Shown here piece after piece: positions 2,514 to 48,801 of a stretch of 64,000 bases of DNA. The stretch spans positions 24,981-88,980 of the forward strand of contig JACQLQ010000004.1 in assembly GCA_016204045.1 (NCBI GenBank), given 5' to 3'. Each line of letters opens with the position of its first letter. Within the stretch, counting starts at the first letter, position 1. A program made the position numbers and the translations under genes. Under the pieces are notes generated by a model. The model searched no databases and was not told the DNA's origin. It saw nothing but the letters and a program-made list of their open reading frames with translations. The DNA comes from Parcubacteria group bacterium (GTDB lineage Bacteria; Patescibacteriota; Minisyncoccia; Phycocordibacterales; UBA2135).

Positions 2514-5500
2514 TTGGTGCCTATGGGAGACGAGCTTCTTTTTGAGGGTAAAAAATATGTGTCGGCAAGACGACTTGCTGAGGGAAGCAAATATTCAAGC
2601 GATCACTTGAGTCGACTTGCTCGTGCTAAAAAAATTGACGGTAGGCTTATCGGCCGCAATTGGTTTATCAACCCAGATTCAATAGAAGTCTACCAGCAAC
2701 AATTAAACGGGGATCATCTTTTCAAGGGCGGTGAAAAAAGTTTTGAAAATGAGCAAAGCCGGGAAGCCGACACTACTCAAACCAATAGCCCTAGCACAAT
2801 AGAGCCTACTCCAAACCCGTCCGAGCATGTACAAGTGGACACTCTGCAAAATCCAGTTATTGGAGAGAACGCCGCAGTTACAATCCCAATTACAACTGGT
2901 GTTGAGTTACTATCAGAAATTCCTGAACCATTAAGGACGGAAAGCGCTATAGAACTGACACCGCCTAGCATTGAAACAGATTCATGGGACAATCTCCTCC
3001 TCGGGTCATTAAAAGAGGAAGAAAACAAAAAAGATGTCGTCACAACAGCATCACCACTACCGACGCCAGCTTCGGTAGAACAACCTCTTACAAAGCGGGT
3101 AGCTGATGTTGAAGTCTCGAAAGAAACCGAAACTCCATCAGCATTCGAAAAGTTTCGGGGAACGGGAATGCAGATACTGCGACATGCCAGCAACCTACCT
3201 GTTCAGGCCTGGCAGGCGAGCATGCCATTTATTGAGCTAGGAAAACTGGCGAAAGGGGTTGTGACAGGGTTCCTCATGGTTTCCGCCTTGGGGGGTGGGG
3301 TATATCTGCTTAGAGATACTCCTTACACGACGTACACGACCCTGTTCTCGAACGTCCTAGTGGCAACTCAAGGTGGGGGAGAAAGAATAGCTTCGGTACT
3401 TGCTTCTGGGATGGAAAACGCGACACATCGCATTACGACAGTGGGCAAGGGAAGTATGGAAATCGCCACCCACCCCAACCACTTCTTTTCACGTACACAG
3501 GAAGTTCTAGCCCAAATCATCGATGTTGTCGGGGCAAGTGCTACATATGCATCTGATAGTATCCTGCGACAATACCACCAAATACACACTCGCATATCTG
3601 ATACGAAACAACTAACCGCCGCTCTGCTTGATATCCCGGGAGGTGTGGCTCGTAACCTGTATGACACGATAACGTCACTTTTTGATGGCAATGATGCCAC
3701 GCCGACGACGCAAGACAAAAAAGGTACGCCTGTTACAATCACCGAGAAAGATATCGAAGAGGCGCGCCGGAAACTTCTTGGAGAAGAATCGGGCTCGACA
3801 CGGGCTAACCCCGCTATTGCGGAACCAACTACAAACACGCCGTTGAGGCAAGTCCAATCTGAAATTACACGGCTACAAAATGAGGTGAACCAACTTAAGC
3901 GTTCCGGGATAACGATTGAGTCACCTGTGGCACCCAAACTCGTGGAACGTATTGTCGAGCGCGTCATACCCGGTGTCACACAAACCAACCTCGATGATCA
4001 ACTGAATATCTTGCGAGGGGATATTGCATCTCTACGAAACTCCACCACACAACAAACAAACACAATATACCGTACAGTGGCTCTTTCTCAGAAAATCGAC
4101 CAACTGAACGATGTCACCCTAACTTCTATTACTGTCTCGGGAGTGTCAGGACTCACCAATGCAGACATCCCCGATGACATCACTGTATCGAACTACCTAC
4201 TCCTCACTGGAGGTACGATAAGTGGAAACTTACAAACGACAGGGACCCTCACTGCTTTTGAAGCGGCAACCATTCCGTCGTTCTCTGCCACATCAACAAC
4301 GAATGCTTCAACCATCAACTATCGTCTAGGTATTGGGACATCTTCTCCGTATGCCGCACTTGCTGTAGTGGGAGAAACAGTTTCCACCTACTTTACCGCA
4401 ACCTCAACTACAGCAACCTCTACTTTCTCTGGCCAAGCAGTCTTTAACAATACTCCTGGAGCTCCCCATACATTTGCTTCGTGGGCGACAGGAGTTGCTG
4501 GTGCACAACCGCTTGTTGCTCCACTTGTTGTGAACCCTGCCTCTGCGGGTTCTGATACCAACCTTATTTCCGCTTCTGTAAACGGTGCTGTACGGTTCTT
4601 GATTGACGCCGAAGGAGATATCTATGCGAACGGTATCTTCTCTACGGGAGGCACCACGCTCTCCACAACAACAGCGTCAACCTTTAGTGTGGAAAACAGT
4701 GCAACCCTTGGTGATGCTACGACGACCGACAGCACCTACTTCAACTCACGTATTGGATCTTCACTTATCCCCACCGTGAACAACCTTCTTGATATCGGAG
4801 ACACCACAAATGGGCTTGCGTGGAGGACGGGTATCTTTGCTACATCGCTCGGTATAGGAACGACCTCACCGTGGGGAGTACTCTCTGTAGACGCACCCTC
4901 TACTGCAAACAACATTACTCCCATCTTTGTCGTGGCTGATAAGGGCACCTCAACACCTTTTATCTACGTGTCTGGGATACAGGGAGATGTGGGAATCCGC
5001 ACTAATACTCCTACGTATGCCTTGGATGTGGCCGGTTCAATCCGCGCCACCTCGGTCATTGACGCTTCCTACTTTAGTGCTACCTCAACGACTGCAACCT
5101 CTACCATCGCAGGCTTCCTCGACATTACAGGGACGAACTCGACGTCTACCATATCGGGAGGACTCGACGTCCTTGGCGCTCTTCGTCTTGGCTCTTCACT
5201 CTCGCTCACGTCGACGACGGCAACCACCACACTCGCAGGAGGTCTCGCTCTAGAGACCACCGGCTTCGTCTATGATTTTTCGTCAAACAACGTAGGTATC
5301 GGTACTGCTGCTCCCGGAGCACAACTCCACCTTAACACCGCCTCAGGACAGAATGCCTTCCGCATTGGTTCAACGACCGATCAGTTCATTGTGAACAATG
5401 TAGGGAATGTGGGGGTTGGGACCACATCACCTGGTTCTCTCTTCTCTGTCGACGGTGGGGGAGCCCTCATCACCAACACCAGCTCAAGCCACTCCTTCTA

Positions 5501-7844
5501 TGTTGAAGATGTTGCGGATGATACGACACCGTTTGTGATTGCAAGTAATGGACAAGTCGGAGTAGGAACGACGACAATGACATCTAATATGGAGCTTGTC
5601 ATCCACGGAGATGGTCAAGACGCGAACATCCAACTAGGAAGAAGCAGCGGTGCCCTGTTTGATATTAGGGCAGGACAAGTGACCGAAGGAGTACTTTTCG
5701 CGCTGACCGGGGGCACGGGCAATATGGACTTTTATCACGGAAGTACGATGAATGTACGGTTTGCCAACAGTGGTAATGTTTTCTTCGGCGATTCTTCAAA
5801 TGCCAACATGACGCAGGGGCTTACGATTAACCAAGCTGGAGCCGATAACCAGGCACTTGCCTTTAAATCTTCTGACGTCTCTCACGGCATAACGTCTCTT
5901 GTCGAGCTAGATACCTATGGCGCTCTTGATAAGGCAAGTGGAGACGACGGGGGTATCGAAATCACCGGTTATTCAGAGGATACAGCCGCCTATGCTATCT
6001 ACCTTACGGGGTATGCAGGTACAGCGAACACTGCAAAATCTACGTCTGCTGTAGCACCCACTGTCGTGTATTCTGGAAAAAGAAGCGGCACCTCTGTTGC
6101 TTCCGTAGGTACTGATGGAAACCTGCTGGTAATTCAGGATGTTGGTAGTACCGAATGGCTCGTTGATGCTGAAGGCGATACTTGGCAGAGCGGGGGAGCC
6201 GGGTTTGCCACCTCAACTGCGTGGGGACTTGTCTCAATCGAAAACACCGGATCCGGACCCTCGTTCGTTGTTTCTGACCAGGCGAATGATACGAGTTCAT
6301 TTGTGATTAATACGGATGGAAAAGTCGGAATTGGAACAAACAACCCGTCGTATCCTCTTCACGCAAGCTCGTCTGCCACTGTCGCTGCGCAATTTAACGT
6401 TACCGACGGTACTACGCCTCAAACGGGGACAATTCTCCTCACAACTACTGAAGCGAGAACCGCTGGCCAAGGGGTCTCTATTTCCTTTAATACGCCGACA
6501 ACGGCACCTTCCTTTGAGGACTCTTCAGCAATAGGCGGCCTTGCAGAGGACTCCGTTACTGGGAATCGAGGGGGTTATCTCTCATTTTGGACAAGACCAA
6601 GTGGCGACACACTTCAAGAGCGGCTTCGTATCACAAGCGCAGGCGACGTTTGTGACGTTGGAGGAGTTGATGCCGACTTTACTGACTGCGCCTCTGATAG
6701 TGCTTTCAAGGAAGATATCGTCGGGTACGAATACGGATTGGAAGAACTCCTTGAGCTACGTCCCGTTGAGTTTAGTTGGAATGCGTTAGCACAAAGCAAG
6801 GGATATAAGGGCGGTGTGCGCGTCAACGGTTTTATCGCTCAGGAAGTGGAGACGGTCTTGCCATCCTGGATTAGCACTAACATAGAAGACGGTGGGTACA
6901 AAAAGATTGACGGTGCGGGGGATCTTCCACTTCTGCTCACCAAATCAGTTCAGGAAATTGCCGCCCGTATTAGTCTCACCTCCGCCCCCACCACAACCCC
7001 CTCCCTCTACATCGACTCGGAAGGTCGCCTCGGGGTGGGCACCACAACCCCCGCCTATACCCTCCATGTCATAGGAGATGTGGCGGCAGAAAGTTTTGTA
7101 AACATTTCAACCAAAGAGGCGAAAAAGGACATTTCGTACCTGGGGCATCTCCAGAAAGAATCGCTCTATGAAAAACTCAAAGACTTGGGGGTTGCAACAT
7201 ACTACTACGAACACGAAGATGCAAGCGATGACCCCGAACGTCTTGGGTTGATTGCTGAAGAAGCGCCTGAAGAGGTACTCGCAAAAGGGGGCAAGGGTGT
7301 AGACCTCTATAAACTTGTTACCGCTCTTCTAGCGGCATTCCAGACGCTTGCAGAGAAGGTGGAGAAGCTTGAAGATGCGGCCGTCACCGGTGTTGCGGCA
7401 GTAACTAATTCCTTTAGCGAATTATTCGCGAGCAAGTTGACCATAACCAACCTCTTGTGCTTGGGAGACACCTGTATCGGCGAATCGGAACTGCAGTCAC
7501 TCCTCACTAATGCGGGGTTAATCGCGACATCAACAACTCCAGTAGTTGAAACCCCAGACGATGAAGAAGCGCCCGATACTGAAGCGCCGACGATAACTAT
7601 TACCGGAGCGAACCCCGCGGAAATTGAGCTTAATGCCGCATATTCCGACAATGGTGCGACAGTCGCAGACAACGTAAACGGCAATCTCGGATATACAACA
7701 TACGTTAATGGCATCCTAATGACGCCAGTCCAACTTGATACAGCAACAACAACCACACATCTTATCGATTACGTGGCTACTGACAGCGCGGGAAACACTG
7801 CCACATCAACACGAACAGTGAATATTGTCGCGCCGCAAAATTAG
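2514..7844 (+). CDS. Giant (1776 aa) membrane-anchored surface protein: tail-fibre-like beta-helical repeats, two tandem intramolecular-chaperone (Peptidase_S74-like) domains and a C-terminal Ig-like DUF5011-like domain
   Basis: Single uninterrupted ORF. N-terminal about 230 aa is cytoplasmic. One TM helix (GVVTGFLMVSALGGGVYLL). At least 7 repeats of (V/I)G(I/V)GTxxPxxxLxV. Two copies of the S74 motif (S-D-S-A-F-K-E-D-I ... GFIAQEVETVLP and S-T-K-E-A-K-K-D-I ... LIAEEAPEEV). C-terminus TITITGANP...YVATDSAGNTATSTRTVNIV resembles DUF5011. Confidence 0.8.
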   Translation: MVPMGDELLFEGKKYVSARRLAEGSKYSSDHLSRLARAKKIDGRLIGRNWFINPDSIEVYQQQLNGDHLFKGGEKSFENEQSREADTTQTNSPSTIEPTPNPSEHVQVDTLQNPVIGENAAVTIPITTGVELLSEIPEPLRTESAIELTPPSIETDSWDNLLLGSLKEEENKKDVVTTASPLPTPASVEQPLTKRVADVEVSKETETPSAFEKFRGTGMQILRHASNLPVQAWQASMPFIELGKLAKGVVTGFLMVSALGGGVYLLRDTPYTTYTTLFSNVLVATQGGGERIASVLASGMENATHRITTVGKGSMEIATHPNHFFSRTQEVLAQIIDVVGASATYASDSILRQYHQIHTRISDTKQLTAALLDIPGGVARNLYDTITSLFDGNDATPTTQDKKGTPVTITEKDIEEARRKLLGEESGSTRANPAIAEPTTNTPLRQVQSEITRLQNEVNQLKRSGITIESPVAPKLVERIVERVIPGVTQTNLDDQLNILRGDIASLRNSTTQQTNTIYRTVALSQKIDQLNDVTLTSITVSGVSGLTNADIPDDITVSNYLLLTGGTISGNLQTTGTLTAFEAATIPSFSATSTTNASTINYRLGIGTSSPYAALAVVGETVSTYFTATSTTATSTFSGQAVFNNTPGAPHTFASWATGVAGAQPLVAPLVVNPASAGSDTNLISASVNGAVRFLIDAEGDIYANGIFSTGGTTLSTTTASTFSVENSATLGDATTTDSTYFNSRIGSSLIPTVNNLLDIGDTTNGLAWRTGIFATSLGIGTTSPWGVLSVDAPSTANNITPIFVVADKGTSTPFIYVSGIQGDVGIRTNTPTYALDVAGSIRATSVIDASYFSATSTTATSTIAGFLDITGTNSTSTISGGLDVLGALRLGSSLSLTSTTATTTLAGGLALETTGFVYDFSSNNVGIGTAAPGAQLHLNTASGQNAFRIGSTTDQFIVNNVGNVGVGTTSPGSLFSVDGGGALITNTSSSHSFYVEDVADDTTPFVIASNGQVGVGTTTMTSNMELVIHGDGQDANIQLGRSSGALFDIRAGQVTEGVLFALTGGTGNMDFYHGSTMNVRFANSGNVFFGDSSNANMTQGLTINQAGADNQALAFKSSDVSHGITSLVELDTYGALDKASGDDGGIEITGYSEDTAAYAIYLTGYAGTANTAKSTSAVAPTVVYSGKRSGTSVASVGTDGNLLVIQDVGSTEWLVDAEGDTWQSGGAGFATSTAWGLVSIENTGSGPSFVVSDQANDTSSFVINTDGKVGIGTNNPSYPLHASSSATVAAQFNVTDGTTPQTGTILLTTTEARTAGQGVSISFNTPTTAPSFEDSSAIGGLAEDSVTGNRGGYLSFWTRPSGDTLQERLRITSAGDVCDVGGVDADFTDCASDSAFKEDIVGYEYGLEELLELRPVEFSWNALAQSKGYKGGVRVNGFIAQEVETVLPSWISTNIEDGGYKKIDGAGDLPLLLTKSVQEIAARISLTSAPTTTPSLYIDSEGRLGVGTTTPAYTLHVIGDVAAESFVNISTKEAKKDISYLGHLQKESLYEKLKDLGVATYYYEHEDASDDPERLGLIAEEAPEEVLAKGGKGVDLYKLVTALLAAFQTLAEKVEKLEDAAVTGVAAVTNSFSELFASKLTITNLLCLGDTCIGESELQSLLTNAGLIATSTTPVVETPDDEEAPDTEAPTITITGANPAEIELNAAYSDNGATVADNVNGNLGYTTYVNGILMTPVQLDTATTTTHLIDYVATDSAGNTATSTRTVNIVAPQN

Positions 7845-7848
7845 GGCG

Positions 7849-9213
7849 TTAGGACTTGAGAATTTTTGGTCCGTTTGGAGTATCGTCTATCCTATAGCCC
7901 ATCTCCTCAACTTCCTTACGGAGCATGTCTGCTTTGGCAAAATCGTTCTGGGCACGTGCTTCTTCGCGCTCTTCTGCAAGATTCTTCACTTCTGATGGAA
8001 TGTCTTCTTTTTTGAGTGTGTCAAAACCTAGTCCAAGAACCCGGTCAAAATCGAGCAGTATCGCCCGCTTTTCTCCGCCACTTAGAGCACGATCACGTAC
8101 AACATCCCAGAGCTCAGCGAGGGCGAGGGGAGTATTCAAATCATCATTGAGCGCCTTGAGAAAATGTTCTTTTGGCTCTTCTCCTGCTTCTGGCCCATCG
8201 TTGGCGAGAGCAAGAAACTGATCGTGCAGTTTGTTGAGTGCGTTTTGCGACGCCTCAAGTGCTTCCCAGGTGAAGTTGATCTGCGTACGGTAATGCGCCT
8301 GGAGAAGGAAGTAGCGATACGCAAGAGGGGAGAAGCCACGCTTCACGACGTCCTCAAGAGTAAAAAAGTTGCCTTTTGACTTTGACATCTTCTCGCTATT
8401 AACCAGGACATGCTCGTTGTGGAGCCAGTAGTGCGCCAAGGGCCTGCCTGTTGCGGCTTCTGACTGCGCGATTTCGTTGTTGTGGTGAACTGTTATGTGG
8501 TCGACGCCTCCGGTGTGAATGTCGAACTCTTCTCCCAAATACTTCATCGACATCGCTGAGCACTCTATATGCCATCCTGGGAAACCCTTGCCCCACGGGC
8601 TTTCCCAACCGAGGTTTTTGTTAAATTTCCACAGAGCAAAGTCTCGCGGGTTCTTCTTTTCGGCATTCATTCCGATGCGCGAGTGGTCCTGGTCCGCCAC
8701 CCCGCCAAGCTTGCCGTAGTCAGGGTATTTCCCTGTATCAAAGTAGACTCCGTCGGAGGTGATATAGGCGAGACCCTTGGCTTCTAAACGTTGGATGAGT
8801 TCGATCTGTTGTGGGACAAACTCACTCGCTCTCGGCAAGGCATCTGGCTTCTTGATATTGAGGGAAGCGGTATCTGCTTCAAAAATACGGATGTAGCGAT
8901 CTGCCAAGGAGTGCATATTCTCAAGCGTTGGAGCCATGCCCTCGCGTTTAAGACCAGCTGTCATCTTGTCTTCTCCTTCATCGGCGTCGGAAGTCAGATG
9001 TCCAACATCGGTGATGTTCATAACCTGCACTACCTTGAAATCGTTGTATTCAAAAACACGACGAGTGATATCTGCAAAGAGAAAGGAGCGCAGGTTCCCA
9101 ATATGCGCCTTGTCGTATACTGTCGGCCCACAGTGGTACATTGAAACCTCCCCCTGTCTAAGTGGCTTAAACTCTTCTGTTTCTCGAGTGAGAGTATTAT
9201 GGAGATGAATCAT
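7849..9213 (-). CDS. cysS: Cysteine--tRNA ligase
   Basis: 454 aa. HIGH-type motif (HIGNLRSF), KMSKS motif (KMSKSKGN) and Cys-binding signature residues. Confidence 0.93.
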   Translation of the reverse strand: MIHLHNTLTRETEEFKPLRQGEVSMYHCGPTVYDKAHIGNLRSFLFADITRRVFEYNDFKVVQVMNITDVGHLTSDADEGEDKMTAGLKREGMAPTLENMHSLADRYIRIFEADTASLNIKKPDALPRASEFVPQQIELIQRLEAKGLAYITSDGVYFDTGKYPDYGKLGGVADQDHSRIGMNAEKKNPRDFALWKFNKNLGWESPWGKGFPGWHIECSAMSMKYLGEEFDIHTGGVDHITVHHNNEIAQSEAATGRPLAHYWLHNEHVLVNSEKMSKSKGNFFTLEDVVKRGFSPLAYRYFLLQAHYRTQINFTWEALEASQNALNKLHDQFLALANDGPEAGEEPKEHFLKALNDDLNTPLALAELWDVVRDRALSGGEKRAILLDFDRVLGLGFDTLKKEDIPSEVKNLAEEREEARAQNDFAKADMLRKEVEEMGYRIDDTPNGPKILKS

Positions 9214-22727: not shown

Positions 22728-22795
22728 TTGGGAAGCCCTGCGCACCAGGTTAAGGTGCCAATCTACGCGGTTACTAAAGTGCTACTAGGGTGCGG

Positions 22796-24472
22796 TTAGG
22801 CGCTGGCGGAGCGAGTCTGCTCGCCGACGTCGTCACCTTCGGTCTCGGTCGCCGCGGCCGCCGCCTGCTGCTGCTTCTCGGTCGCTCCGAGGTTGCAGCG
22901 GAGGAAGAAGCGCGCGGGGTTGTTCACCCCCGAGTACCGCTTGCCGGTCTTGTCGTCCGGATCAAGCTCGTAGAAGGACGACCCGGCGGGGATCTCCGCG
23001 AGGAGCACGGCGTGACACGCTGCCACACCGTGGATGATGATGCGAGGCTTGTTGTCCTCGCCCACCACACGTTCCACCGCCATCGGGACCGTACCCAGCT
23101 TGGCGACCGTGGTCTTCGTCCGCGTACCGTCGCGAACGATCTCACCGTCCTTGTAGACGGGAAGCGTCGGCTCGAACTCCGAGACGACGAGGACCGCGAC
23201 GCCAGTGGCACCACCGTGGAAGTCGGCTGCGGAGATGAGCTTCTTGCCCTTCCCTGCGGCCTTCTTCGCGATGGTGGTCACCTCGGTCAGGGCATGCTCG
23301 GCGGCTTCCCGCTCCGCATTGGCGCGCTCGATCAGGACGCGCTCGTGCTTGAAGGCCCGAGACGCGATCATGAACGCGGCGAACGCCGTGCCCTTGTACG
23401 TGGTGCTCGCCTGCTTCGGCGTCAAGCCGAGGTCGGCGATCGCGACGGTGATGCCCGCTTCCGCGATCTGCGTGATCTTGTTGCGGAAGTAGGAGTTGCC
23501 GTGGCCGGCGACGAAGGTGACCTTGCCGTCGGCTGCGGTGACACGCACCTTGCCGCCGTCGTATTGATCGTCACCAGGGTCGGTGACGACGAGGTCACCT
23601 TCCCCACCCTTGTCCGCGACGCCGATGGCGTTGAGGTTCGGGGTGAGACCCTCGTTCAGGGCATCCAGGCTATCGCGCCAACGCTGGCTCGCTTCGCGAG
23701 CAAGCGCCGAGGCGAGATCGCCCAAGACCTCGAACGGGTTCTTGTACGCCGGCACCGCGACACCCTTGACGACGAGGTCCTTGGGCCACGTCGTCCGCAT
23801 GTCGGCTGCCGTCGCCTTGAACTCCGGCGACATCTCGATCCAGCGGTCGCGCCCGACCTTGACGACACCAACCTTGCGGGTGTTGCCGTCGGTGACCGGA
23901 CGCGCGACGCCGAGCGCAATGGCACGATCGGCGACGTGGCCGAGGTCGAACCAGTTGCTGGGGCACAGGAGGGCGATCGCCGTCACGTACGCGAACTTCG
24001 CGTGCCGCGAGATGACCGGCGCCTCATCGGGAGTGAACTGCCCGAAGGAGGCGTTGAAGCGCCGCTGGAGCGCCGAGTCGGCGTCGAGCTTGTCGCGACG
24101 AGCGCGCAGCATGTCCTTCTCCGTCGCCGTGCCACGAGTCGCGAGCTGGCTCGCGATCGCGAGACGGTCCGAACGCTGGCTCCAGACGATCTGGGCAACG
24201 CTGCCCGGAAGGGCATAGAGGACGGAGTTGAACGTGCTGCTCCGCTCGTCCATCTGCTGACGGCGCGCTTCCTCCGCACCGGTGTCCGGTGCGTCGGTAT
24301 GCGTGCCGCCGAGGTCGGCGTCGAGATCGAACACGAGCTTGTCGGTCGCCGCGGGGGCGCCGGCCTTCTTGGTCTGCTTCACGGACTGCTCCTTGGTGGG
24401 GTTGGTCTTGGCATGCTCCAACGCCTCCGCAAAGGAGGTCGTCGATTGACGGCGAGGAGTGCTCTTACCCAT
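22796..24472 (-). CDS. Hypothetical 558-aa protein, GC-rich (about 68% GC, extreme GC3); no recognisable domain
   Basis: The minus-strand ORF has diverse composition. The overlapping 601-aa plus-strand ORF is R/L/G/V-rich with no stop (antisense shadow typical of high GC3). Plausible RBS GAAGGAAACCCAAG upstream of the ATG. K/T/A-rich N-terminus, segments GHGNSYF and IIIHGVAACHAV. Confidence 0.65.
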   Translation of the reverse strand: MGKSTPRRQSTTSFAEALEHAKTNPTKEQSVKQTKKAGAPAATDKLVFDLDADLGGTHTDAPDTGAEEARRQQMDERSSTFNSVLYALPGSVAQIVWSQRSDRLAIASQLATRGTATEKDMLRARRDKLDADSALQRRFNASFGQFTPDEAPVISRHAKFAYVTAIALLCPSNWFDLGHVADRAIALGVARPVTDGNTRKVGVVKVGRDRWIEMSPEFKATAADMRTTWPKDLVVKGVAVPAYKNPFEVLGDLASALAREASQRWRDSLDALNEGLTPNLNAIGVADKGGEGDLVVTDPGDDQYDGGKVRVTAADGKVTFVAGHGNSYFRNKITQIAEAGITVAIADLGLTPKQASTTYKGTAFAAFMIASRAFKHERVLIERANAEREAAEHALTEVTTIAKKAAGKGKKLISAADFHGGATGVAVLVVSEFEPTLPVYKDGEIVRDGTRTKTTVAKLGTVPMAVERVVGEDNKPRIIIHGVAACHAVLLAEIPAGSSFYELDPDDKTGKRYSGVNNPARFFLRCNLGATEKQQQAAAAATETEGDDVGEQTRSASA

Positions 24473-24600
24473 CTTGGGTTTCCTTCTTCAGTGCTCCTTC
24501 GGAACATCCCACAATGGGATGTCTCGTGGAGCGATAAACATACTCAAGGTTACACGAGACCCTGCCTTCTTAGGGGCAAGGTATCTGTAGTATAGTATAG

Positions 24601-27067: not shown

Positions 27068-28321
27068 CTACAGTGTCTGTGCGAGCTGTCCCGAAGAATC
27101 TGTCGGGGAACTCCCAAATATCTGCATGCGTTTCTTCGCCTCGTACGTCACGACGGGGAGGCCGTCGAGGAATGTCACTTCCGAGTGTTTCTTCCATTGG
27201 GCACTAAGTGCAGTTTCCCAGGAGAGAATCCATGGACGTACTCGGATGTTGATCAACCCAGCGAGTTCCTTTACGCGGTTAATTGCGTGAAGAAAATCAA
27301 TATCACCGGTGATGAGTGCGAGTATAAGCTCTTCGCCCTCCACCATCTCACCCATCTGTCTTACGGAGTGGTATACAATGTCCGCGGCCATCAAGGGGTC
27401 GGTGTCAGACTTTTCGTGGAAAATGATCTGGAAACTCCCCCGCGCGGCACTACCCCGCATATTCTTCTGCGCCGCAAAATTCTTCACGAGGCGCGGACTC
27501 GAATATACATACGCCCAACCACCAGCAAGAGAGAGCGGCTCATTCCCCGAAGGTCCGAGACAAACACGATGCATGAGCCCCGCCCAATCTACATCACGCA
27601 ATTCAACAAGGCGCTCTTTGGCGGCCGGGCCCGTAATTGGTTCGACGCGCTCACCGCTAAACTTGCGATTCTTTGCGATAAGCGCCTCGCTTTCTCCGCC
27701 CCTTCTCCGACCAGTCAGATTTGCCGCGTCGACAAAGACGAGTACGCGAGGACGCATCTTCCTCACTGGCGGAGTTTTGTCAGCTGGCGACACTCCCGCG
27801 CCGTGAGCGACAATCTTGCCCCACTCTGCCGCATGCTTCGCGCGCGCGGTAGCCGGTACGACTGCTGCCGGTGCCGATTTGGTTGCACGAGGCAGAAGCG
27901 GTGTTGCTGGCGAACTTGCCCCAGTCTCACTCTCGCCACCCTCTTTCGGAAGCGGTTTCCCATCCCTGCGAAAGATTCGAAACTTCCGCTCCGCTCTGAC
28001 TCCTGCACCACTTGGTGGCGTGGGGGTAGGAGGAGAAGCTACGGCGGTAAGCGGAGTTACGATCTCCTCTGGCCGCTTGATGAAGTGTATTGACTCAATC
28101 GACTTCCCTCTGCCACGGAATTCGAATACGGGCTTTAGCCACTGACATGCGGCTGCCTTATCAATATAGTGACGCCAATTGTTGGGCACATGAAGATATG
28201 CCCGGAAGAGCGTACGACCATCCCCAGCGGCCGTCGCTTTCTCATAAAGATGGCGGTAGACGATCGCGAGATTCTCTTCTGCGGCGCCTGCTCCCCGCTT
28301 CAAAACGGGCCTTGCTGACAT
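27068..28321 (-). CDS. NYN-domain (LabA/MARF1-like PIN-fold nuclease) protein with N-terminal domain and Pro/Ala-rich linker
   Basis: 417 aa. The C-terminal half has NYN signatures: VLVFVDAANL near the domain start and LILALITGDIDFLHAINRVKELAGLINIRV (GD.DF...G, the equivalent of the SgDsDF motif). Residues about 95-190 are low-complexity P/A/T-rich. Confidence 0.6.
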   Translation of the reverse strand: MSARPVLKRGAGAAEENLAIVYRHLYEKATAAGDGRTLFRAYLHVPNNWRHYIDKAAACQWLKPVFEFRGRGKSIESIHFIKRPEEIVTPLTAVASPPTPTPPSGAGVRAERKFRIFRRDGKPLPKEGGESETGASSPATPLLPRATKSAPAAVVPATARAKHAAEWGKIVAHGAGVSPADKTPPVRKMRPRVLVFVDAANLTGRRRGGESEALIAKNRKFSGERVEPITGPAAKERLVELRDVDWAGLMHRVCLGPSGNEPLSLAGGWAYVYSSPRLVKNFAAQKNMRGSAARGSFQIIFHEKSDTDPLMAADIVYHSVRQMGEMVEGEELILALITGDIDFLHAINRVKELAGLINIRVRPWILSWETALSAQWKKHSEVTFLDGLPVVTYEAKKRMQIFGSSPTDSSGQLAQTL

Positions 28322-35465: not shown

Positions 35466-36224
35466 TTACGTAATATCTAGCGCATCAACACGTGCCCGCT
35501 CGAGTACCTCTTCGGCCGCTTGGCTAAAAAGCAACTCGACTGCCTTAGTCTCACGCTTCATGTCTTCTGCAACGACGATAGAATCCTCAGACGGATGCAC
35601 TGCGCGAGCCAGATCTTCATCGATCTCGAGGTGTGATGGCCCATCGTGGTGCGCAATGTGCAACTCCCCCCAGGCAAACTGACCGTCGAGCTGTTCCGTG
35701 AATGGACGCGAACCACAGAGAAAGGCGGAGAGCTCTTCCGCGATGTATTCGGTTGCGGCAAGCGCACAGAAGAACTTGAAAGGATCGTCTGTATACGCCT
35801 TATCGATAAGCGCCTGAATGCAATGCACTCTCTCTCGAGCCACCCCGAGTGTGGTCAGATTGAGCCCCATCTTGGAAGCATCGTCATGCCATGTGCGAGC
35901 GTGCTCACCCTCTTCTTCGTGCATCTGACGAAGGACGTGAGCGGCGGAAACAAAGTACTGTTGTGCAATCTCGGTGCTAAAGCGGCCCTTGAGAAGCCTA
36001 CGGAGGGGCAGCCTCTTCGACTGCGCATCAATTGCTTTCTCAAATTCGTACACAAACGGCCAGAAGCCAACGAGGAGCGCCCGCATGGCTGTCGGGCTGC
36101 CTCTGCCACAATTCGCGATGAGTGTCGAACCCTCGACAAGACCGCGAGCAAAGCCACGAAGAAATCCTCGATCAACAATAGGATTGGGATAGAGCAACCA
36201 ATGCTTTCCCGCCGGTTTCGTCAT
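35466..36224 (-). CDS. Heme-oxygenase-like fold (TenA/PqqC/CADD-like) iron-containing redox enzyme family protein
   Basis: Start set at the ATG (MTKPAGKHW...) preceded by GGAGGAACTCTG (strong SD). The ORF-track start is a TTG 43 codons upstream. The helical protein carries conserved E/H residues (EYIAEELSAF, ELHIAHHDG). The family assignment is tentative. Confidence 0.45.
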   Translation of the reverse strand: MTKPAGKHWLLYPNPIVDRGFLRGFARGLVEGSTLIANCGRGSPTAMRALLVGFWPFVYEFEKAIDAQSKRLPLRRLLKGRFSTEIAQQYFVSAAHVLRQMHEEEGEHARTWHDDASKMGLNLTTLGVARERVHCIQALIDKAYTDDPFKFFCALAATEYIAEELSAFLCGSRPFTEQLDGQFAWGELHIAHHDGPSHLEIDEDLARAVHPSEDSIVVAEDMKRETKAVELLFSQAAEEVLERARVDALDIT

Positions 36225-36315
36225 CAGAGTTCCTCCACGTACCAGAACTGATCCTAGAGTAATATATGAAAAGGTCTGTGTCAAACTCAAAGGTTGGTCT
36301 GTACAATTAAAAAAT

Positions 36316-36341
36316 GAAGCCGCCGGTTTCCCAGCGGCTTC
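36316..36341 (-). terminator. Intrinsic terminator after the 194-aa gene (minus strand)
   Basis: 8-bp stem GAAGCCGC/GCGGCTTC. On the minus strand it is followed by ATTTTTTAATTG. Confidence 0.6.
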
Positions 36342-36364
36342 GATACAACGCAACGTCTCGACTG

Positions 36365-45974: not shown

Positions 45975-47471
45975 CTAATAGTCAAGCGTGCTTTTAACAT
46001 CTATGTCTTGGGGGTTTTCTGGAAACTCCCCCTTCCAGAAGGGCCTGACCATAACTTCGGCCTTTATAACGCCCGAAAACTGACCCATGGCGTTTTTCAG
46101 GCTGTCTTTTGAACGGCCAGTAAGCGCTTCCTTAATCTTCTCGCTATCGAATTTCCAGACAAATTCTGGTTCACCCTTAAGCGAGAACGTAAGATGTGTG
46201 TCTTCCGCAGGATTGAAAGTATCTTTGTTTGCTATGGCAAACGCAAGTGTCGCTACGTTCGCAATTTCAATATCCTCCTCTTCCGTTAATTGCGGGAGTA
46301 GTTTACCGCCGAGGTAGGAGAAAAATGCCTCCCGAGGGAAAAGGATGCCGTAGAGTTTTCCTTCTTCGCGCACAACAACAGTGCGTTCGCTTACTTCAGA
46401 TTCTGCGCTCTTTAACGAGGGAGAAAATTTGATCAGTACTCCTTCGTCAAAAAGAATAAAGTCCGCGGGTTTCTCGGCAATCGCTTTTTCTACTAATTGC
46501 TTTTTGAGCGCACTGCGAAGCTCTTCTCGTATCTTTGTTTCTTCATCCTCCGCAATCGTCTTTACCGCGCCACTAAAGCCACCCTCAAGCGCAGTCGATG
46601 ATCGCGCATAAAATGCGGTATACCTAGGCGTCCCCTTAAAGCCGGGAACGGTAAACTCGGTTTTCTCAATATTGTATCGTTCCCCCGGCAAATCCGCGTG
46701 CACTGTTACTTCCACGCTACCTGGCACCAATGTTCCATCGACCTTGCTTTGACCTGGCACGACGACGGATTCGTAAATCCGATACACAAGCCCGCCCGCG
46801 GCTTCAAAACGGGTGTTGCGTATCAGTCGCTGTTCAGCACTGCTGTAGTTGTTGAAAATGGTGATTTTCCCCGACGCGCGGCGCTCGATGTTTTTCATTT
46901 CTGTTGCATTGACCTGTCGTTCGAGTGCCAAAGAGAGCTGCATCACCTCAAACGCAAGCGCGCCTTTTTCTCCTGGCTTAAGACCGCGCTCTGCGGCAAA
47001 GACGGCATTGAGTGCCATACTCTTTGTGCGTGGGGTGATGATGACCGTTGCGCTCTCAAAAAGCGTCGCAACAGAAAGAATGAGAAAGAGGACCGAGAGA
47101 GATGCCGCCCCCCACAACACGCCTCTTGAGTACCGACGTGGCGCGCCAGGTACTTTCATGGAAAACCCGGGGTGGAGTCCCGCTTCCGCTACTTTTGGAG
47201 TTTCCTTTCGCGCCTCCGGAGCTTTTACCTCCGCAGAAGCTCGATGCTCTTCAGACTTTCCCAATACGGTAGTCGATTTCAGTTCCCCCTCTGTCGTGTT
47301 TTTGGGTGAACGTTCAAATCTTGCGAATAATTTTGACTTCTTTTTGGTTAGAAAGCTATCTCGGGCGGGTAGGCTCCCGGATGGTTCTTTGATGCGGATG
47401 TCATTTATCTTTTTTCGCGGCATACGTGAGGATAGAGATATCCTAAGTATACCATATTTTTCGTGTGTCAA
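45975..47471 (-). CDS. Hypothetical membrane-anchored protein (ORF-track start is TTG; ATG at MPRKKIND about 47423 is the likely start)
   Basis: One TM (LWGAASLSVLFLILSVATLF), then a large extracytoplasmic domain with no recognisable motifs. Confidence 0.45.
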   Translation of the reverse strand: MTHEKYGILRISLSSRMPRKKINDIRIKEPSGSLPARDSFLTKKKSKLFARFERSPKNTTEGELKSTTVLGKSEEHRASAEVKAPEARKETPKVAEAGLHPGFSMKVPGAPRRYSRGVLWGAASLSVLFLILSVATLFESATVIITPRTKSMALNAVFAAERGLKPGEKGALAFEVMQLSLALERQVNATEMKNIERRASGKITIFNNYSSAEQRLIRNTRFEAAGGLVYRIYESVVVPGQSKVDGTLVPGSVEVTVHADLPGERYNIEKTEFTVPGFKGTPRYTAFYARSSTALEGGFSGAVKTIAEDEETKIREELRSALKKQLVEKAIAEKPADFILFDEGVLIKFSPSLKSAESEVSERTVVVREEGKLYGILFPREAFFSYLGGKLLPQLTEEEDIEIANVATLAFAIANKDTFNPAEDTHLTFSLKGEPEFVWKFDSEKIKEALTGRSKDSLKNAMGQFSGVIKAEVMVRPFWKGEFPENPQDIDVKSTLDY

Positions 47472-47604: not shown

Positions 47605-48801
47605 TTACACGAGGAAGACGGCTCGATCTGCAAAGATGGTTTCGGTGGTTAGGAAGGTGTCATCTTCACGGGGATTAGTAAGTTCAATGTGTGGTGCAAG
47701 TACTTCCCCGGAAAGAACATGGACAGGTACGCCACTATCAGCAAACACCGTCCCCAAAAGTGCCTCCTTAGCCAAGATTGTCTTGAGCCATCCAGCAAAT
47801 GCTGGATCCGCAGAGACAAATATCCCCTGCAGGAGAAAGGGTACGGGTGAAATAGAGGCAAGCGCCTTCCGTATCGCACGTAACAGCACGTCCTCTCGGT
47901 TTTTGACCAACGTTAAGATCCCAGAAGAAACATCTCGAGAGCTTTTACCGGTGAGTACGAGGGAAAGCAGTGATCTTGCCTCAGTCGCAGAGATGTTCTT
48001 TGCTTTCATGACGTCGCGCACAAAGATATTGGTGCCCATCGGAAATGAAAGCACGTCACGGAGCGCCCCGTCTGCGACGAGTCCGATCTCCACCACCTCA
48101 CCGCTCATGCGTACAAGGAGAGAATCGTCCACTTGGGGCCACAAATCGCGCACTCCCGCAAAGAGGGCAAACAGGTGGGAATGAAACGTTATCGGGGCGT
48201 TATGAAAAACGTGCGCGTACCCTTCGCGGATAATGCGGACGACATACTCTGGAGCGAGAGAAAGGTAGAGTGAGAGCGAAAGTTCTGTCCCGCGCTTTCC
48301 TTTTGGTGATACAACGGGATATCCGTTGACGGCTGCGCGCATAACATGTTTCTCGAGCAGCGTGACACTTTCCTTCCCAAAAGCTTTTTCACGAAAGCTC
48401 TCTGCCTCTTTGTCGAGAGATTGCTCCATTATTTCATCAGTAACAGTAAAGGGCTGGTCACGTTTTATCGTAATCGTCTTGGTGGCGATCGCATGCCAGG
48501 GCGCTCCGAGAACACAAACCACCTCGTCGGGTATGGTCCGCGCATATTCTCTGGGCACACGGAGCATCCCCTGTGTGGCAGTATCCTGCAGTACGGCCGT
48601 AAGCGTTGTCCCCATCCCGGCAAAAAATTTCTCAAAGTGGAGCGTGCTCTGAAACGGCATCTCCTTTCTTTTTGTGTAAAAGATGGTTGGTTTCCCGTCT
48701 TTGCGCAAGAGTGCAAGCGCGACTCCGATAGAAGCGCTCCCCACATCTATAATGACAGCGAGTCTTTCTGTCTTGCTACCCCAGGAGGAGAAGATTCCCA
48801 T
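47605..48801 (-). CDS. Actin-like ATPase superfamily protein (FtsA/PilM-like)
   Basis: 398 aa. N-terminal phosphate-1-like AVIIDVGSASIGVAL, later VRMSGEVVEIGLVADGAL. The assignment is weak. Confidence 0.4.
   Translation of the reverse strand: MGIFSSWGSKTERLAVIIDVGSASIGVALALLRKDGKPTIFYTKRKEMPFQSTLHFEKFFAGMGTTLTAVLQDTATQGMLRVPREYARTIPDEVVCVLGAPWHAIATKTITIKRDQPFTVTDEIMEQSLDKEAESFREKAFGKESVTLLEKHVMRAAVNGYPVVSPKGKRGTELSLSLYLSLAPEYVVRIIREGYAHVFHNAPITFHSHLFALFAGVRDLWPQVDDSLLVRMSGEVVEIGLVADGALRDVLSFPMGTNIFVRDVMKAKNISATEARSLLSLVLTGKSSRDVSSGILTLVKNREDVLLRAIRKALASISPVPFLLQGIFVSADPAFAGWLKTILAKEALLGTVFADSGVPVHVLSGEVLAPHIELTNPREDDTFLTTETIFADRAVFLV

What the first reader, a model, noticed from the sequence alone, without database searches (positions are those of the whole stretch)
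6670..7400. Two tandem S74-type intramolecular chaperone (auto-cleaving) modules inside the giant protein
Two consecutive segments carry the hallmark of endosialidase or tail-spike C-terminal chaperone domains. The first is S-D-S-A-F-K-E-D-I followed by GFIAQEVETVLPSWIS. The second is S-T-K-E-A-K-K-D-I followed by GLIAEEAPEEVLAKGG ... LVTALLAAFQTLAEKVEKLE. In phages this domain drives trimerisation and then self-cleaves at the conserved Ser. Two in tandem, followed by a further Ig-like domain, would predict sequential auto-processing and release of C-terminal fragments, which is unusual.
Basis: partly seen in the sequence, partly recalled or inferred. Interest (0 to 1): 0.5.

Follow-up and report, generated by a model that had tools for sequence, protein, structure and literature searches.

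The report
Two self-cleaving chaperone domains in tandem
A giant surface-fibre protein of an ultrasmall groundwater bacterium (Parcubacteria) ends in two back-to-back copies of the self-cutting folding domain that phage tail fibres normally carry once at their very end; this layout is conserved in at least 158 related species but I found no description of it.

Summary
ORF 2514-7844 (+, 1776 aa) carries two Peptidase_S74-type intramolecular chaperone domains (ICDs), then a Bact_surface_Ig-like domain.

- Both keep the Ser-x4-Lys catalytic dyad.
- The gene is cellular, not phage. It lies between dnaB and cysS in a Parcubacteria MAG (NCBI MBI4118393.1), syntenic with an ortholog.
- The protein has an N-terminal membrane anchor and Bdellovibrio-MAT-like capping-loop repeats.
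- The arrangement "ICD1, ~25-45 aa mini-stalk, ICD2, coiled coil, Ig" recurs across Patescibacteria.
- ICD2 and everything after it form a constant cassette under purifying selection. The fibre tip plus ICD1 form a hypervariable, apparently swapped cassette (~20% identity between orthologs).
- Multi-ICD proteins make up roughly 0.1-0.2% of S74-bearing clusters, and nearly all keep the dyad.

Most likely reading: a trimeric adhesin fibre matures by cutting at S1394 and S1532. Cleavage is inferred, not shown. This is a new variant of a known kind. Interest is moderate.

The parts
2514..7844 (+). Giant ORF of 1776 aa, counted from TTG 2514. The likely true start is ATG 2523 (MGDELLF...). It equals NCBI MBI4118393.1, 'tail fiber domain-containing protein [Parcubacteria group bacterium]'.
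   Evidence: It is 100% identical to P0123 = MBI4118393.1 over aa 600-1776. The ortholog L001 aligns from MGDELLF.
2523..2723 (+). Conserved N-terminal HTH-like (excisionase/HTH_17-like) domain, presumably cytoplasmic.
   Evidence: 89% identical to the ortholog. The same motif heads many homologs. Pfam HTH_17 scores only 14.2 bits, E 0.054, which is not significant.
3255..3311 (+). The single predicted transmembrane helix (aa 248-266), acting as a signal anchor.
   Evidence: It is the only 19-aa window with Kyte-Doolittle mean above 1.6. Homologs have a TM helix at a similar position.
4191..5873 (+). Thr/Gly/Ser-rich fibre shaft carrying the first six of the eight 'VGIGTTsPxxxL' capping-loop repeats (aa 605, 779, 826, 927, 966, 1015); the other two lie at aa 1271 (tip) and aa 1506 (mini-stalk). 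Largely conserved with the ortholog.
   Evidence: Eight motif copies in the whole protein. The motif corresponds to the MAT-fibre capping-loop consensus V-G-G/N-pi-x-x-P-x-x-x-L (PMC10769870). 75-95% identity to L001 over most of aa 600-1120.
5874..6692 (+). Hypervariable distal tip of the fibre (aa 1121-1393). It would become the C-terminal end of the mature fibre after cleavage at Ser1394.
   Evidence: 20-45% identity to the syntenic ortholog, and no blastn match for window 5834-6992. pN 0.49. PHROG tail-fibre hits over aa 1198-1455 and aa 1242-1379.
6693..6971 (+). ICD1, a canonical Peptidase_S74 intramolecular chaperone domain (aa 1394-1486). Putative nucleophile Ser1394 is nt 6693-6695 and base Lys1399 is nt 6708-6710. 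The predicted cut is A1393|S1394.
   Evidence: Pfam 44.7 bits, E 1.7e-11. AF2 pLDDT about 90. Ser and Lys are invariant in the merged alignment. Only 17% identical to the ortholog's ICD1.
6972..7106 (+). Mini-stalk or spacer (aa 1487-1531): one beta-helix rung plus a capping loop (LGVGTTTPAYTLHVIGDVAA) ending in FVNI just before Ser1532.
   Evidence: Hits PDB 8OJN, the Bdellovibrio Bd3182 fibre beta-helix, E 3.3e-7. Foldseek 8ONC: 63% identity over 27 aa at 0.8 A. The gap between the two matched ICD domains is 24-42 aa in 17 tandem homologs. 82% identical to the ortholog.
7107..7436 (+). ICD2, a divergent compact S74-type ICD with a 44-residue C-terminal helix (aa 1532-1641). Putative nucleophile Ser1532 is nt 7107-7109 and base Lys1537 is nt 7122-7124. 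The predicted cut is I1531|S1532.
7437..7592 (+). Linker (aa 1642-1693) with a predicted beta-hairpin containing two Cys, a short helix, and an acidic Thr/Pro-rich tether.
   Evidence: AF2 secondary structure E285-288, E291-294, H295-304, then low pLDDT. 73% identical to the ortholog.
7593..7826 (+). C-terminal Bact_surface_Ig-like (DUF5011) domain, aa 1694-1771.
   Evidence: PF16403, 34.8 bits, E 1.7e-8. AF2 pLDDT 93-98. Foldseek hits to bacterial Ig-like adhesin domains. pN 0.159 against saturated pS, which indicates purifying selection.

Best explanation
The gene encodes a membrane-anchored, trimeric surface fibre of a Parcubacteria (Patescibacteria/CPR) cell, presumably an adhesin. It is built on the same principles as phage tail fibres and Bdellovibrio MAT fibres.

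Domain order:
- a cytoplasmic HTH-like head and one TM helix;
- a long beta-helical shaft with capping loops and a hypervariable distal tip;
- ICD1, a canonical S74 chaperone that travels and diverges with the tip;
- a one-rung mini-stalk;
- ICD2, a compact, highly conserved S74 chaperone whose long C-terminal helix should form the trimeric coiled coil;
- a tether and an Ig-like domain.

Proposed mechanism (inferred). After export, the constant C-terminal cassette (mini-stalk, ICD2, coiled coil) trimerises and sets the register of the three chains. ICD1 then nucleates and checks folding of the variable tip. Each ICD, once trimeric, uses its Ser/Lys dyad to cut the chain just before its Ser, at A1393|S1394 and I1531|S1532. 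That leaves a mature fibre of about 145 kDa per chain whose free end is the hypervariable tip. It releases a 14.8-kDa ICD1/mini-stalk piece and a 25.9-kDa ICD2/coiled-coil/Ig piece.

The conserved mini-stalk and ICD2 also act as the downstream homology arm that lets [tip + ICD1] cassettes be exchanged.

Shown here: domain identities, dyad conservation, cellular context, and the conservation/variability pattern. Inferred: trimerisation, both cleavages, their order, and the role of the Ig piece.

The confidence of 0.6 is for the whole statement, including both cleavages. Confidence in the domain identities and the cellular fibre context alone is about 0.95.
For: Domain identity:

Catalytic dyad:
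- In a merged alignment of both ICD types, the only invariant columns are Ser, Lys(+5), one Gly and one Pro.
- ICD2 keeps the Ser and Lys in 56 of 56 aligned homologs and the full F[VI]N.S....K motif in 81 of 81 ORFs from genome loci.
- ICD1 keeps S-x4-K in all evaluable copies although it is otherwise very divergent.
- Elsewhere, some internal ICD copies have lost the Lys (P0155 K->M in three copies, P0102 K->Q). Retention here therefore looks selected.
- S->A or K->A abolishes cleavage in MyRF and Bd3182 (PMC8326128; PMC10769870).

Fibre nature:
- Eight capping-loop motifs, a PDB hit to the Bd3182 beta-helix, and PHROG tail-fibre hits.

Cellular context:
- RecR-DnaB-gene-CysS synteny with L001, flanks 77-89% identical.
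- The TM anchor is conserved.

Cassette structure:
- aa 1121-1486 are ~20-40% identical to the ortholog, against 68-95% on both sides.
- The query's ICD1 is closer (37-40%) to ICD1s of other species than to its own ortholog's.
- The constant cassette has pN 0.07-0.16 with saturated pS.
- A hypervariable tip that becomes the free end only if ICD1 cuts fits the S74 precedent, where cleavage exposes the binding site.
- The long ICD2 helix fits the finding that the C-terminal coiled coil drives ICA trimerisation.
Against: - No experimental evidence of cleavage or trimerisation exists for any member of this family.
- ICD2 alone is marginally below Pfam's cut-off (21.1 against 22). It has Thr (77 of 81) rather than the usual Asp after the Ser.
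- If ICD1 cuts, ICD2's own cut looks redundant for maturing the fibre.
- The discarded piece would contain an Ig-like domain that is under purifying selection. This argues that the piece has a function I cannot name, or that ICD2 does not cut.
- 37 of 81 ICD2-bearing ORFs showed no canonical ICD1. Most carry a different, unidentified domain upstream, so ICD1 is not obligatory for the family.
- The AF2 models are monomers, so dyad geometry could not be checked.
Confidence: 0.6

Rival explanations
1. Only ICD1 cuts. ICD2 is a non-cleaving trimerisation hub, and the ICD2/coiled-coil/Ig unit either leaves as one piece with ICD1 or has its own role. The mirror case is also possible: ICD2 cuts and ICD1 is a structural node.
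For: Internal ICDs that have lost the catalytic Lys exist in other multi-ICD proteins (P0155, P0102), so non-cleaving ICD nodes do occur. ICD2 has Thr instead of Asp at +1 and sits below the Pfam cut-off. One cut is enough to free the tip.
Against: Ser and Lys of ICD2 are invariant in every sequence examined (56 aligned homologs; 81 genome ORFs). In MyRF, S587A and K592A abolish cleavage, and the S587A protein still crystallised as a trimer, so their strict retention is best explained by catalysis. The Bacillus-phage relatives of ICD2 carry the same S-x4-K-K-D-I motif at a true C-terminus, where one is annotated as an intramolecular chaperone.
Confidence: 0.22
2. Neither ICD cuts. Both serve as in-line trimerisation and registration knots, and three tethered Ig-like domains are the real distal adhesive tip.
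For: The Ig-like domain is conserved and under purifying selection. PF16403-type domains occur in surface adhesins. A terminal binding domain on a fibre is a common design; non-S74 MAT fibres end in beta-sandwich tips.
Against: The most variable part of the protein is the segment before ICD1, not the Ig domain. Distal receptor-binding parts are normally the variable ones. The dyad is retained in both ICDs across hundreds of divergent sequences, while it decays in some other proteins. Every S74 domain tested so far self-cleaves: endoNF, T5, MyRF and Bd3182.
Confidence: 0.1
3. The gene is a phage or prophage tail-fibre gene sitting in the MAG, so the domains act in virion assembly.
For: PGAP names it 'tail fiber domain-containing protein'. 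PHROG tail-fibre hits. ICD2's nearest annotated relatives are Bacillus phage tail fibres.
Against: The immediate neighbours are recR, dnaB, cysS, a Ctp protease and rplI. The rest of the 64-kb window is housekeeping (murG, ftsW, mraY, dnaK, rpoA, PBPs, tRNA synthetases), with no phage genes found. The locus is syntenic in another Parcubacteria genome. The protein has an N-terminal HTH-like domain plus a TM anchor shared by homologs. Only 24 phage records match, and only ICD2, at 33-37% identity.
Confidence: 0.03

Closest known systems
Phage C-terminal intramolecular chaperone domain (Peptidase S74 / PF13884): K1F endosialidase endoNF (3GW6), T5 L-shaped tail fibre pb1 (4UW8), GA-1 neck appendage (3GUD), and the Bacillus phage tail fibres Flapjack gp94 and Stahl gp55
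   Same: Both copies share the fold and sequence family. Both have the S-x4-K dyad at the N-terminal edge of the domain. Both sit directly after a trimeric beta-helix with a capping loop. ICD2 is 33-37% identical to the Bacillus phage ICDs, including the S-x4-K-K-D-I motif and the long terminal helix.
   Different: In the two Bacillus phage fibres inspected the domain is at the extreme C-terminus, 7-23 aa from the stop, and the phage literature read here describes it as a C-terminal domain. Here there are two in series, both internal, followed by 135 more residues including an Ig-like domain. The protein is a chromosomal, membrane-anchored cellular protein.
Bdellovibrio bacteriovorus MAT (mosaic adhesive trimer) fibres of the S74 group, e.g. 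Bd3182 (8OJN/8ONB/8ONC; PMC10769870)
   Same: A cellular (non-phage) surface fibre of a bacterium that lives on other bacteria. It has repeated capping loops (V-G-G/N-pi-x-x-P-x-x-x-L), and the spacer before ICD2 matches the Bd3182 beta-helix (E 3.3e-7). It has an S74 domain with an S-x4-K dyad close to the SDxxxK motif. For Bd3182, self-cleavage at S782 was shown and is blocked by S782A.
   Different: MAT proteins start with a signal peptide and a conserved ~130-aa beta-rich domain, and they terminate in one S74 domain or in a non-S74 tip. This protein starts with an HTH-like domain plus a TM anchor, has two ICDs in tandem, and has an Ig-like domain after them.
MyRF / MrfA ICA domain (7DC3; PMC8326128, PMC3828593)
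   Different: MyRF is eukaryotic. It has a single ICA domain, located on the cytoplasmic side between the DNA-binding domain and the TM helix, so cleavage frees a transcription factor. Here the TM helix lies about 1100 residues before the ICDs, so the N-terminal HTH-like domain would not be released.

Membership tests
Peptidase S74 / intramolecular chaperone (PF13884): copy 1 (aa 1394-1486) | Significant match to the family profile above the curated cut-off | tested here: met
   44.7 bits, E 1.7e-11, against a cut-off of 22; profile positions 1-56 of 58.
Peptidase S74 / intramolecular chaperone (PF13884): copy 1 (aa 1394-1486) | Ser-Lys catalytic dyad in an S-D-x-x-x-K context at the start of the domain | tested here: met
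   S1394-D-S-A-F-K1399. Ser and Lys are invariant in alignment A3. The dyad is present in all evaluable ICD1 copies of homologs.
Peptidase S74 / intramolecular chaperone (PF13884): copy 2 (aa 1532-1641) | Significant match to the family profile above the curated cut-off | tested here: inconclusive
   Alone it scores 21.1 bits, E 3.8e-4, against a cut-off of 22. It counts as the second stretch of a 56.4-bit whole-protein hit. Many homologs carrying only this copy have no precomputed PF13884 hit. Homology is nonetheless supported by hhalign at 97.2%, E 3.9e-11.
Peptidase S74 / intramolecular chaperone (PF13884): copy 2 (aa 1532-1641) | Ser-Lys dyad in an S-D-x-x-x-K context | tested here: met
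   S1532-T-K-E-A-K1537. Ser and Lys are invariant in 56 aligned homologs and in 81 of 81 genome ORFs. The +1 residue is Thr (77) or Ser (4) rather than Asp, so the strict 'SD' is not kept. The Bacillus phage ICDs of the same subtype also lack Asp (SSESYK, SLRELK).
Peptidase S74 / intramolecular chaperone (PF13884): copy 2 (aa 1532-1641) | ICD fold as in 3GW6, 4UW8, 3GUD and 7DC3 | tested here: met
Peptidase S74 / intramolecular chaperone (both copies) | Sits directly C-terminal to a trimeric beta-helix or fibre segment | tested here: met
   ICD2 is preceded by one capping-loop rung that matches the Bd3182 beta-helix. ICD1 is preceded by the fibre tip, with its last capping loop at aa 1271. Trimeric state itself was not tested.
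Peptidase S74 / intramolecular chaperone (both copies) | Trimerisation-dependent self-cleavage immediately before the Ser, abolished by Ser->Ala or Lys->Ala | not testable with these tools
   This needs expression plus SDS-PAGE/MS or metaproteomics. The precedents are endoNF, MyRF and Bd3182.
Peptidase S74 as described for phages and MAT fibres | Single copy at the extreme C-terminus, released as the only by-product | tested here: not met
   There are two copies. ICD1 ends 290 aa and ICD2 ends 135 aa before the stop, and an Ig-like domain follows. Phage relatives end 7-23 aa after the match.
Bdellovibrio MAT fibre family | Signal peptide followed by the conserved ~130-aa beta-rich N-terminal domain (PMC10769870) | tested here: not met
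   The N-terminus is an HTH-like domain, then about 180 aa of low-complexity linker, then a TM helix at aa 248-266. The only PDB match is to the capping-loop beta-helix.
Bdellovibrio MAT fibre family | Trimeric beta-helical fibre with repeated capping loops V-G-G/N-pi-x-x-P-x-x-x-L | tested here: met
   Eight [VLIF]G[IV][GR]T...P...L motifs. 8OJN hit at E 3.3e-7. 8ONC: 63% identity over 27 aa at 0.8 A.
MyRF-type membrane-tethered factor | The ICA domain lies between the DNA-binding domain and the TM helix, so that cleavage frees the DNA-binding part | tested here: not met
   The order here is HTH-like, TM (aa 248-266), fibre, then ICDs (aa 1394 onward). Cleavage cannot release the N-terminal domain.

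The most novel reading that the evidence does not exclude
S74 domains are used here as programmed internal cutters that turn one giant precursor into several separate trimeric products. These are a membrane-anchored fibre with a swappable tip, and a released (or non-covalently retained) ICD2/coiled-coil/Ig trimer with its own conserved function. More generally, multi-ICD giants such as P0099 would be self-processing 'poly-fibre' polyproteins. P0099 is 5473 aa, with four canonical ICDs about 1000 aa apart plus ICD2, all with intact dyads. This would be a bacterial extracellular counterpart of viral polyproteins and of MyRF.
Probability: 0.3. Interest if true: 0.75.

Novelty: new variant of a known kind. 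Interest (0 to 1): 0.55.

Why it matters
Patescibacteria (CPR) make up a large share of bacterial diversity. All cultivated members are obligate episymbionts living on other microbes (PMC12206443 abstract). How they recognise and hold on to hosts is largely unknown beyond type IV pili.

This family of giant fibres is present in at least 158 species representatives. It has a hypervariable, exchangeable tip and phage-style self-cleaving chaperones. That makes it a concrete candidate for host recognition, parallel to the Bdellovibrio MAT fibres.

For protein science, the family offers a natural system with two different S74 domains in one chain: a variable 'tentacle-type' domain and a constant compact domain. 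It can be used to ask several questions:
- How are very long trimeric fibres registered?
- Can internal S74 domains cut?
- What is the conserved Ig-bearing fragment for?

The constant mini-stalk plus ICD2 cassette could also serve as a portable trimerisation and self-removal tag.

Tried and rejected
1. Phage or prophage origin. Rejected: the neighbours are housekeeping genes, the locus is syntenic, and no phage genes were found among the window ORFs scanned.

3. MyRF-like release of the N-terminal HTH-like domain. Rejected on topology, because the TM helix lies between the HTH-like domain and the ICDs.

4. Identity of the domain that replaces ICD1 in 'ICD2-only' homologs (DLAENYPT...GRVPVKV...). 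From memory I suspected a phi29-type Peptidase_G2 autocleaving chaperone. This is not supported:
- Pfam gives only Phage_cement_2 at 19.6 bits, below its cut-off.
- PHROGs gives nothing significant for that domain.
- There is no PDB relative.
- tblastn finds only unannotated or virion-structural proteins of jumbo phages such as PA5oct and Phosso.

5. Searches that returned nothing:
- an exact 40-mer scan of GTDB representative genomes;
- The look-up of encoding contigs for P0123;
- a word-index homolog search with the N-terminal 86 aa;
- NCBIfam;
- tRNA and Rfam scans of the window.

6. Literature searches found no paper on these proteins. I searched for tandem S74, for CPR with S74 or intramolecular chaperone, and in the giant-gene preprint.

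7. Foldseek with the 414-aa multi-domain model was dominated by Ig-like hits, so ICD2 was refolded alone.


Full report
**1.

The region lies in one ORF, 2514..7844 on the + strand, 1776 aa. The coordinates run from nt 6693 to nt 7373.
- Pfam gives Peptidase_S74 (PF13884) with two stretches on the whole protein: 56.4 bits, E 3.7e-15, cut-off 22. It also gives Bact_surface_Ig-like (PF16403) at aa 1694-1771.
- Scanned separately, copy 1 (ICD1) scores 44.7 bits, E 1.7e-11.
- Copy 2 (ICD2) scores 21.1 bits, E 3.8e-4, a hair under the cut-off.
- My own HMMs find no other ICD anywhere in the window.

**2. Copy 2 is a real S74-type chaperone domain**

- A profile of 32 ICD1-type sequences aligned to a profile of 56 ICD2-type sequences gives 97.2% probability, E 3.9e-11, over 94 columns. 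The Ser aligns with the Ser and the Lys with the Lys.
- Foldseek agrees. It also matches the preceding loop to Bdellovibrio fibre capping loops.
- tblastn against 50,697 phage records finds ICD2 only in tail-fibre genes of Bacillus and Geobacillus phages, at 33-37% identity. One is annotated 'intramolecular chaperone-containing tail fiber protein'.
- In those phage genes the domain carries the same S-x4-K-K-D-I motif. It ends 7-23 residues before the stop codon.

**3. The gene is cellular**

- Its neighbours are recR and dnaB upstream and cysS, a Ctp protease and rplI downstream.
- The rest of the window holds murG, ftsW, mraY, dnaK, rpoA, PBPs, a Mur ligase and several tRNA synthetases.
- The protein is identical to NCBI MBI4118393.1, 'MAG: tail fiber domain-containing protein [Parcubacteria group bacterium]', on a 268,591-bp contig.
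- A second Parcubacteria genome (L001, JACQLS010000027) has the same RecR-DnaB-giant gene-CysS order, with flanking proteins 77-89% identical.

**4. Anatomy of the protein**

- aa 1-70: a conserved HTH-like domain. It is 89% identical to the ortholog, but Pfam HTH_17 scores only 14 bits, so its nature is unproven.
- aa 71-247: low-complexity linker.
- aa 248-266: the only predicted TM helix.
- aa ~560-1393: a Thr/Gly/Ser-rich region containing seven of the protein's eight 'VGIGTTsPxxxL' motifs; the eighth is in the spacer at aa 1506.
- These motifs correspond to the capping-loop consensus of Bdellovibrio MAT fibres (PMC10769870). The copy just before ICD2 hits the Bd3182 beta-helix structure 8OJN at E 3.3e-7.
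- aa 1394-1486: ICD1. aa 1487-1531: a 45-aa spacer of one rung plus a capping loop. aa 1532-1641: ICD2, including a 44-residue helix.
- Then a short hairpin/helix, an acidic tether and the Ig-like domain.
- Several N-terminally complete homologs share the HTH-like head and TM anchor.

**5. The tandem layout is a family trait**

- A search with aa 1363-1776 returned 98 homologs. Nearly all named ones are Patescibacteria MAGs.
- Seventeen proteins, including the query, have ICD1 and ICD2 separated by 24-42 aa.
- A scan of one genome per GTDB species found 158 species encoding an ICD2 relative. All listed titles are Patescibacteria or unclassified MAGs.
- In the 80 loci kept there are 81 ICD2-bearing ORFs. 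About 44 have a recognisable ICD1 just upstream.
- Most of the remaining 37 have a different conserved domain there, which I could not identify. A few, including the ortholog L001, have a very divergent ICD1-like domain that still shows S-x4-K.
- ICD2 is followed by 150-360 more residues in nearly all. Many members exceed 3000 aa.

**6. The catalytic dyad**

- S->A or K->A abolishes cleavage in MyRF, where S587/K592 are equivalent to endoNF S911/K916 (PMC8326128). S782A blocks cleavage in Bd3182.
- Here ICD1 has S1394...K1399 and ICD2 has S1532...K1537.
- In a merged alignment of 31 ICD1 and ICD2 sequences, the only invariant columns are that Ser, that Lys, the Gly of GxIAxE and one Pro.
- ICD2's Ser and Lys are invariant in 56 aligned homologs and in 81 of 81 genome ORFs.
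- ICD1 keeps S-x4-K in all evaluable copies. The four regex 'misses' are one truncated domain and three that do have the dyad.
- A profile of both types was run against 1.84 billion representative proteins. It found 248,686 hits at E <= 1e-3, but only 289 at E <= 1e-30, and all of the best 150 have 2-5 ICD stretches.
- Multi-copy S74 proteins are therefore rare, of the order of 0.1-0.2% of S74-bearing clusters. This is a rough lower bound. They are nevertheless recurrent.
- They also occur outside CPR, for example in a Dysgonamonadaceae MAG and in Tara marine contigs.
- Among 136 such representatives, the dyad is kept in 148 of 152 evaluable internal copies. A few proteins have lost the Lys in internal copies: P0155 has K->M three times with the last copy intact, and P0102 has K->Q.
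- Because the dyad can decay where cleavage is presumably not needed, its strict retention in both copies of this family argues that both cut.

**7. The two ICDs are not equivalent**

- Against the syntenic ortholog, identity is 75-95% over most of the shaft and 68-93% from the spacer to the C-terminus. It is only ~20-40% over aa 1121-1486, the tip plus ICD1.
- There is no nucleotide similarity at all for window 5834-6992.
- The query's ICD1 is 37-40% identical to ICD1s of other species, yet BLAST cannot detect it in its own ortholog.
- With synonymous sites saturated (pS 0.69-0.92), pN is 0.07 for ICD2, 0.14 for the linker and 0.16 for the Ig domain. It is 0.49 for the tip and 0.61 for ICD1.
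- The protein therefore consists of a conserved anchor and shaft, a hypervariable and apparently exchanged [tip + ICD1] cassette, and a constant [mini-stalk + ICD2 + coiled coil + Ig] cassette.
- In alignment A3, ICD1 has the longer beta3-beta4 region and ICD2 is compact. ICD2's best structural match is MyRF, whose short 'cable-cutter' ICA acts independently of upstream sequence. In endoNF a long tentacle and an upstream Arg tie cleavage to correct folding of the beta-helix.
- I infer that ICD1 is the tip-specific chaperone and ICD2 an autonomous trimerising cutter.

**8. Mechanism proposed (inferred)**

- The constant cassette trimerises through its long helix and sets the chain register.
- ICD1 nucleates the variable tip.
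- Both ICDs then cut before their Ser.
- The products would be the anchored fibre (aa 4-1393, 144.7 kDa), a 14.8-kDa piece (aa 1394-1531) and a 25.9-kDa piece (aa 1532-1776).
- The hypervariable segment becomes the free distal end only if ICD1 cuts. This matches the S74 precedent in which cleavage exposes the binding cleft.
- Unexplained: why a second cut is needed, and what the conserved Ig-bearing fragment does. This is the main weakness of the model. It keeps alive the rival readings in which only one ICD cuts, or in which ICD2 is a hub presenting Ig tips.

**9. Comparison and novelty**

- Each domain belongs to a known family, with the caveat that ICD2 is sub-threshold for Pfam and lacks the Asp of 'SD'.
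- The architecture is not the one described. Phage and MAT S74 domains are single and terminal. MyRF's is internal, but single and cytoplasmic.
- The protein fails the N-terminal criterion of the MAT family, and its topology does not fit MyRF.
- Literature searches found no description of tandem S74 domains or of these CPR proteins. That reflects only what this library holds.
- I rate it a new variant of a known kind, of moderate interest.

Noticed in passing
window 2523-2723 and 3255-3311: The giant protein starts with a strongly conserved HTH-like (excisionase/HTH_17-like) domain followed by a TM helix. The domain is 89% identical to the ortholog. The same head ('GKKYIS..RA.....Y..DYIGQL.R..KI....IGR.WFV.E.S...Y') opens most of the N-terminally complete homologs inspected (seen in L001, both L024 ORFs, L017, L021, L041, L049 and L066). 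Pfam support is insignificant (14.2 bits). It is unclear what a DNA-binding-type fold does on the cytoplasmic end of a surface fibre.
   Followed up: partly
window 2514-2834 (public record MBI4118393.1): The public annotation of this protein is 1669 aa, starting 107 residues downstream of the ORF start used here. That would remove the N-terminal domain that is 82-90% conserved in the ortholog, so the annotated start is probably too far downstream.
   Followed up: partly
window 5834-6992 vs L001 6087-7149: A 1.16-kb stretch (fibre tip plus ICD1) has no detectable nucleotide similarity to the syntenic ortholog, while both flanks align at 70-72%. The downstream boundary falls at the conserved mini-stalk. 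This looks like cassette replacement by recombination.
   Followed up: yes
L013, L019, L029, L059, L011, L055 and about 25 other loci, the ~170 aa upstream of ICD2: In most of the 'ICD2-only' homologs that lack a recognisable ICD1, its place is taken by a different conserved domain (...D[LV]AE[NS]YPT.D..L.AGE.V.LD...GV.ST.PG.LLGG...P.ALSGRVPVKV..EGG.I..GD.I..S...GVG.KA...G..VG.ALE...). It has no Pfam, PHROG or PDB identity. Its only relatives found are unannotated or virion-structural proteins of jumbo phages (PA5oct group, Sinorhizobium phage Phosso). My guess of a Peptidase_G2-type autocleaving chaperone was not supported.
   Followed up: partly
P0099 (5473 aa, NCBI, 47.8-kb contig); P0155; P0102: P0099 has four canonical S74 domains about 1000 aa apart plus an ICD2 and an Ig-bearing tail, all with intact SDxRLK, which is a polyprotein-like layout. 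In contrast P0155 has four ICDs, of which the first three have Lys->Met. P0102 (three tandem ICDs, Tara marine) has Lys->Gln in one internal copy.
   Followed up: partly
L070 7611-9143 (N-terminal part); homologs P0017, P0027, P0068: An intein-like sequence (...VYDIEVEDTHNFVGNDIFAHNT) interrupts a family member just upstream of its mini-stalk/ICD2. Three homologs carry precomputed PF14890 (Intein_splicing) hits. These fibres may therefore combine two kinds of protein self-processing.
   Followed up: no
L002 7962-7964: A single in-frame stop codon splits a close homolog inside ICD1 (ORFs 6798-7961 and 7965-9104 share one frame). It could be a sequencing error, a pseudogene or recoding. This was not resolved.
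   Followed up: no
window 6651-6689 (aa 1380 and 1392): Two Cys residues (C1380, C1392) sit just before the predicted ICD1 cut site. A Cys 2-4 residues before the catalytic Ser is common in the ICD1s of this family (e.g. ...TACNPSS, ...GTCVSD, ...SSCTVSS). Its role is unknown.
   Followed up: no
window 22790-24595 (+) / 22796-24472 (-); also 27068-28321 (-), 35466-36353 (-), 45975-47471 (-), 47605-48801 (-): There are several long ORFs with no Pfam match. They include a pair of about 560-600 aa that overlap almost completely on opposite strands, so it is unclear which strand is coding.
   Followed up: no
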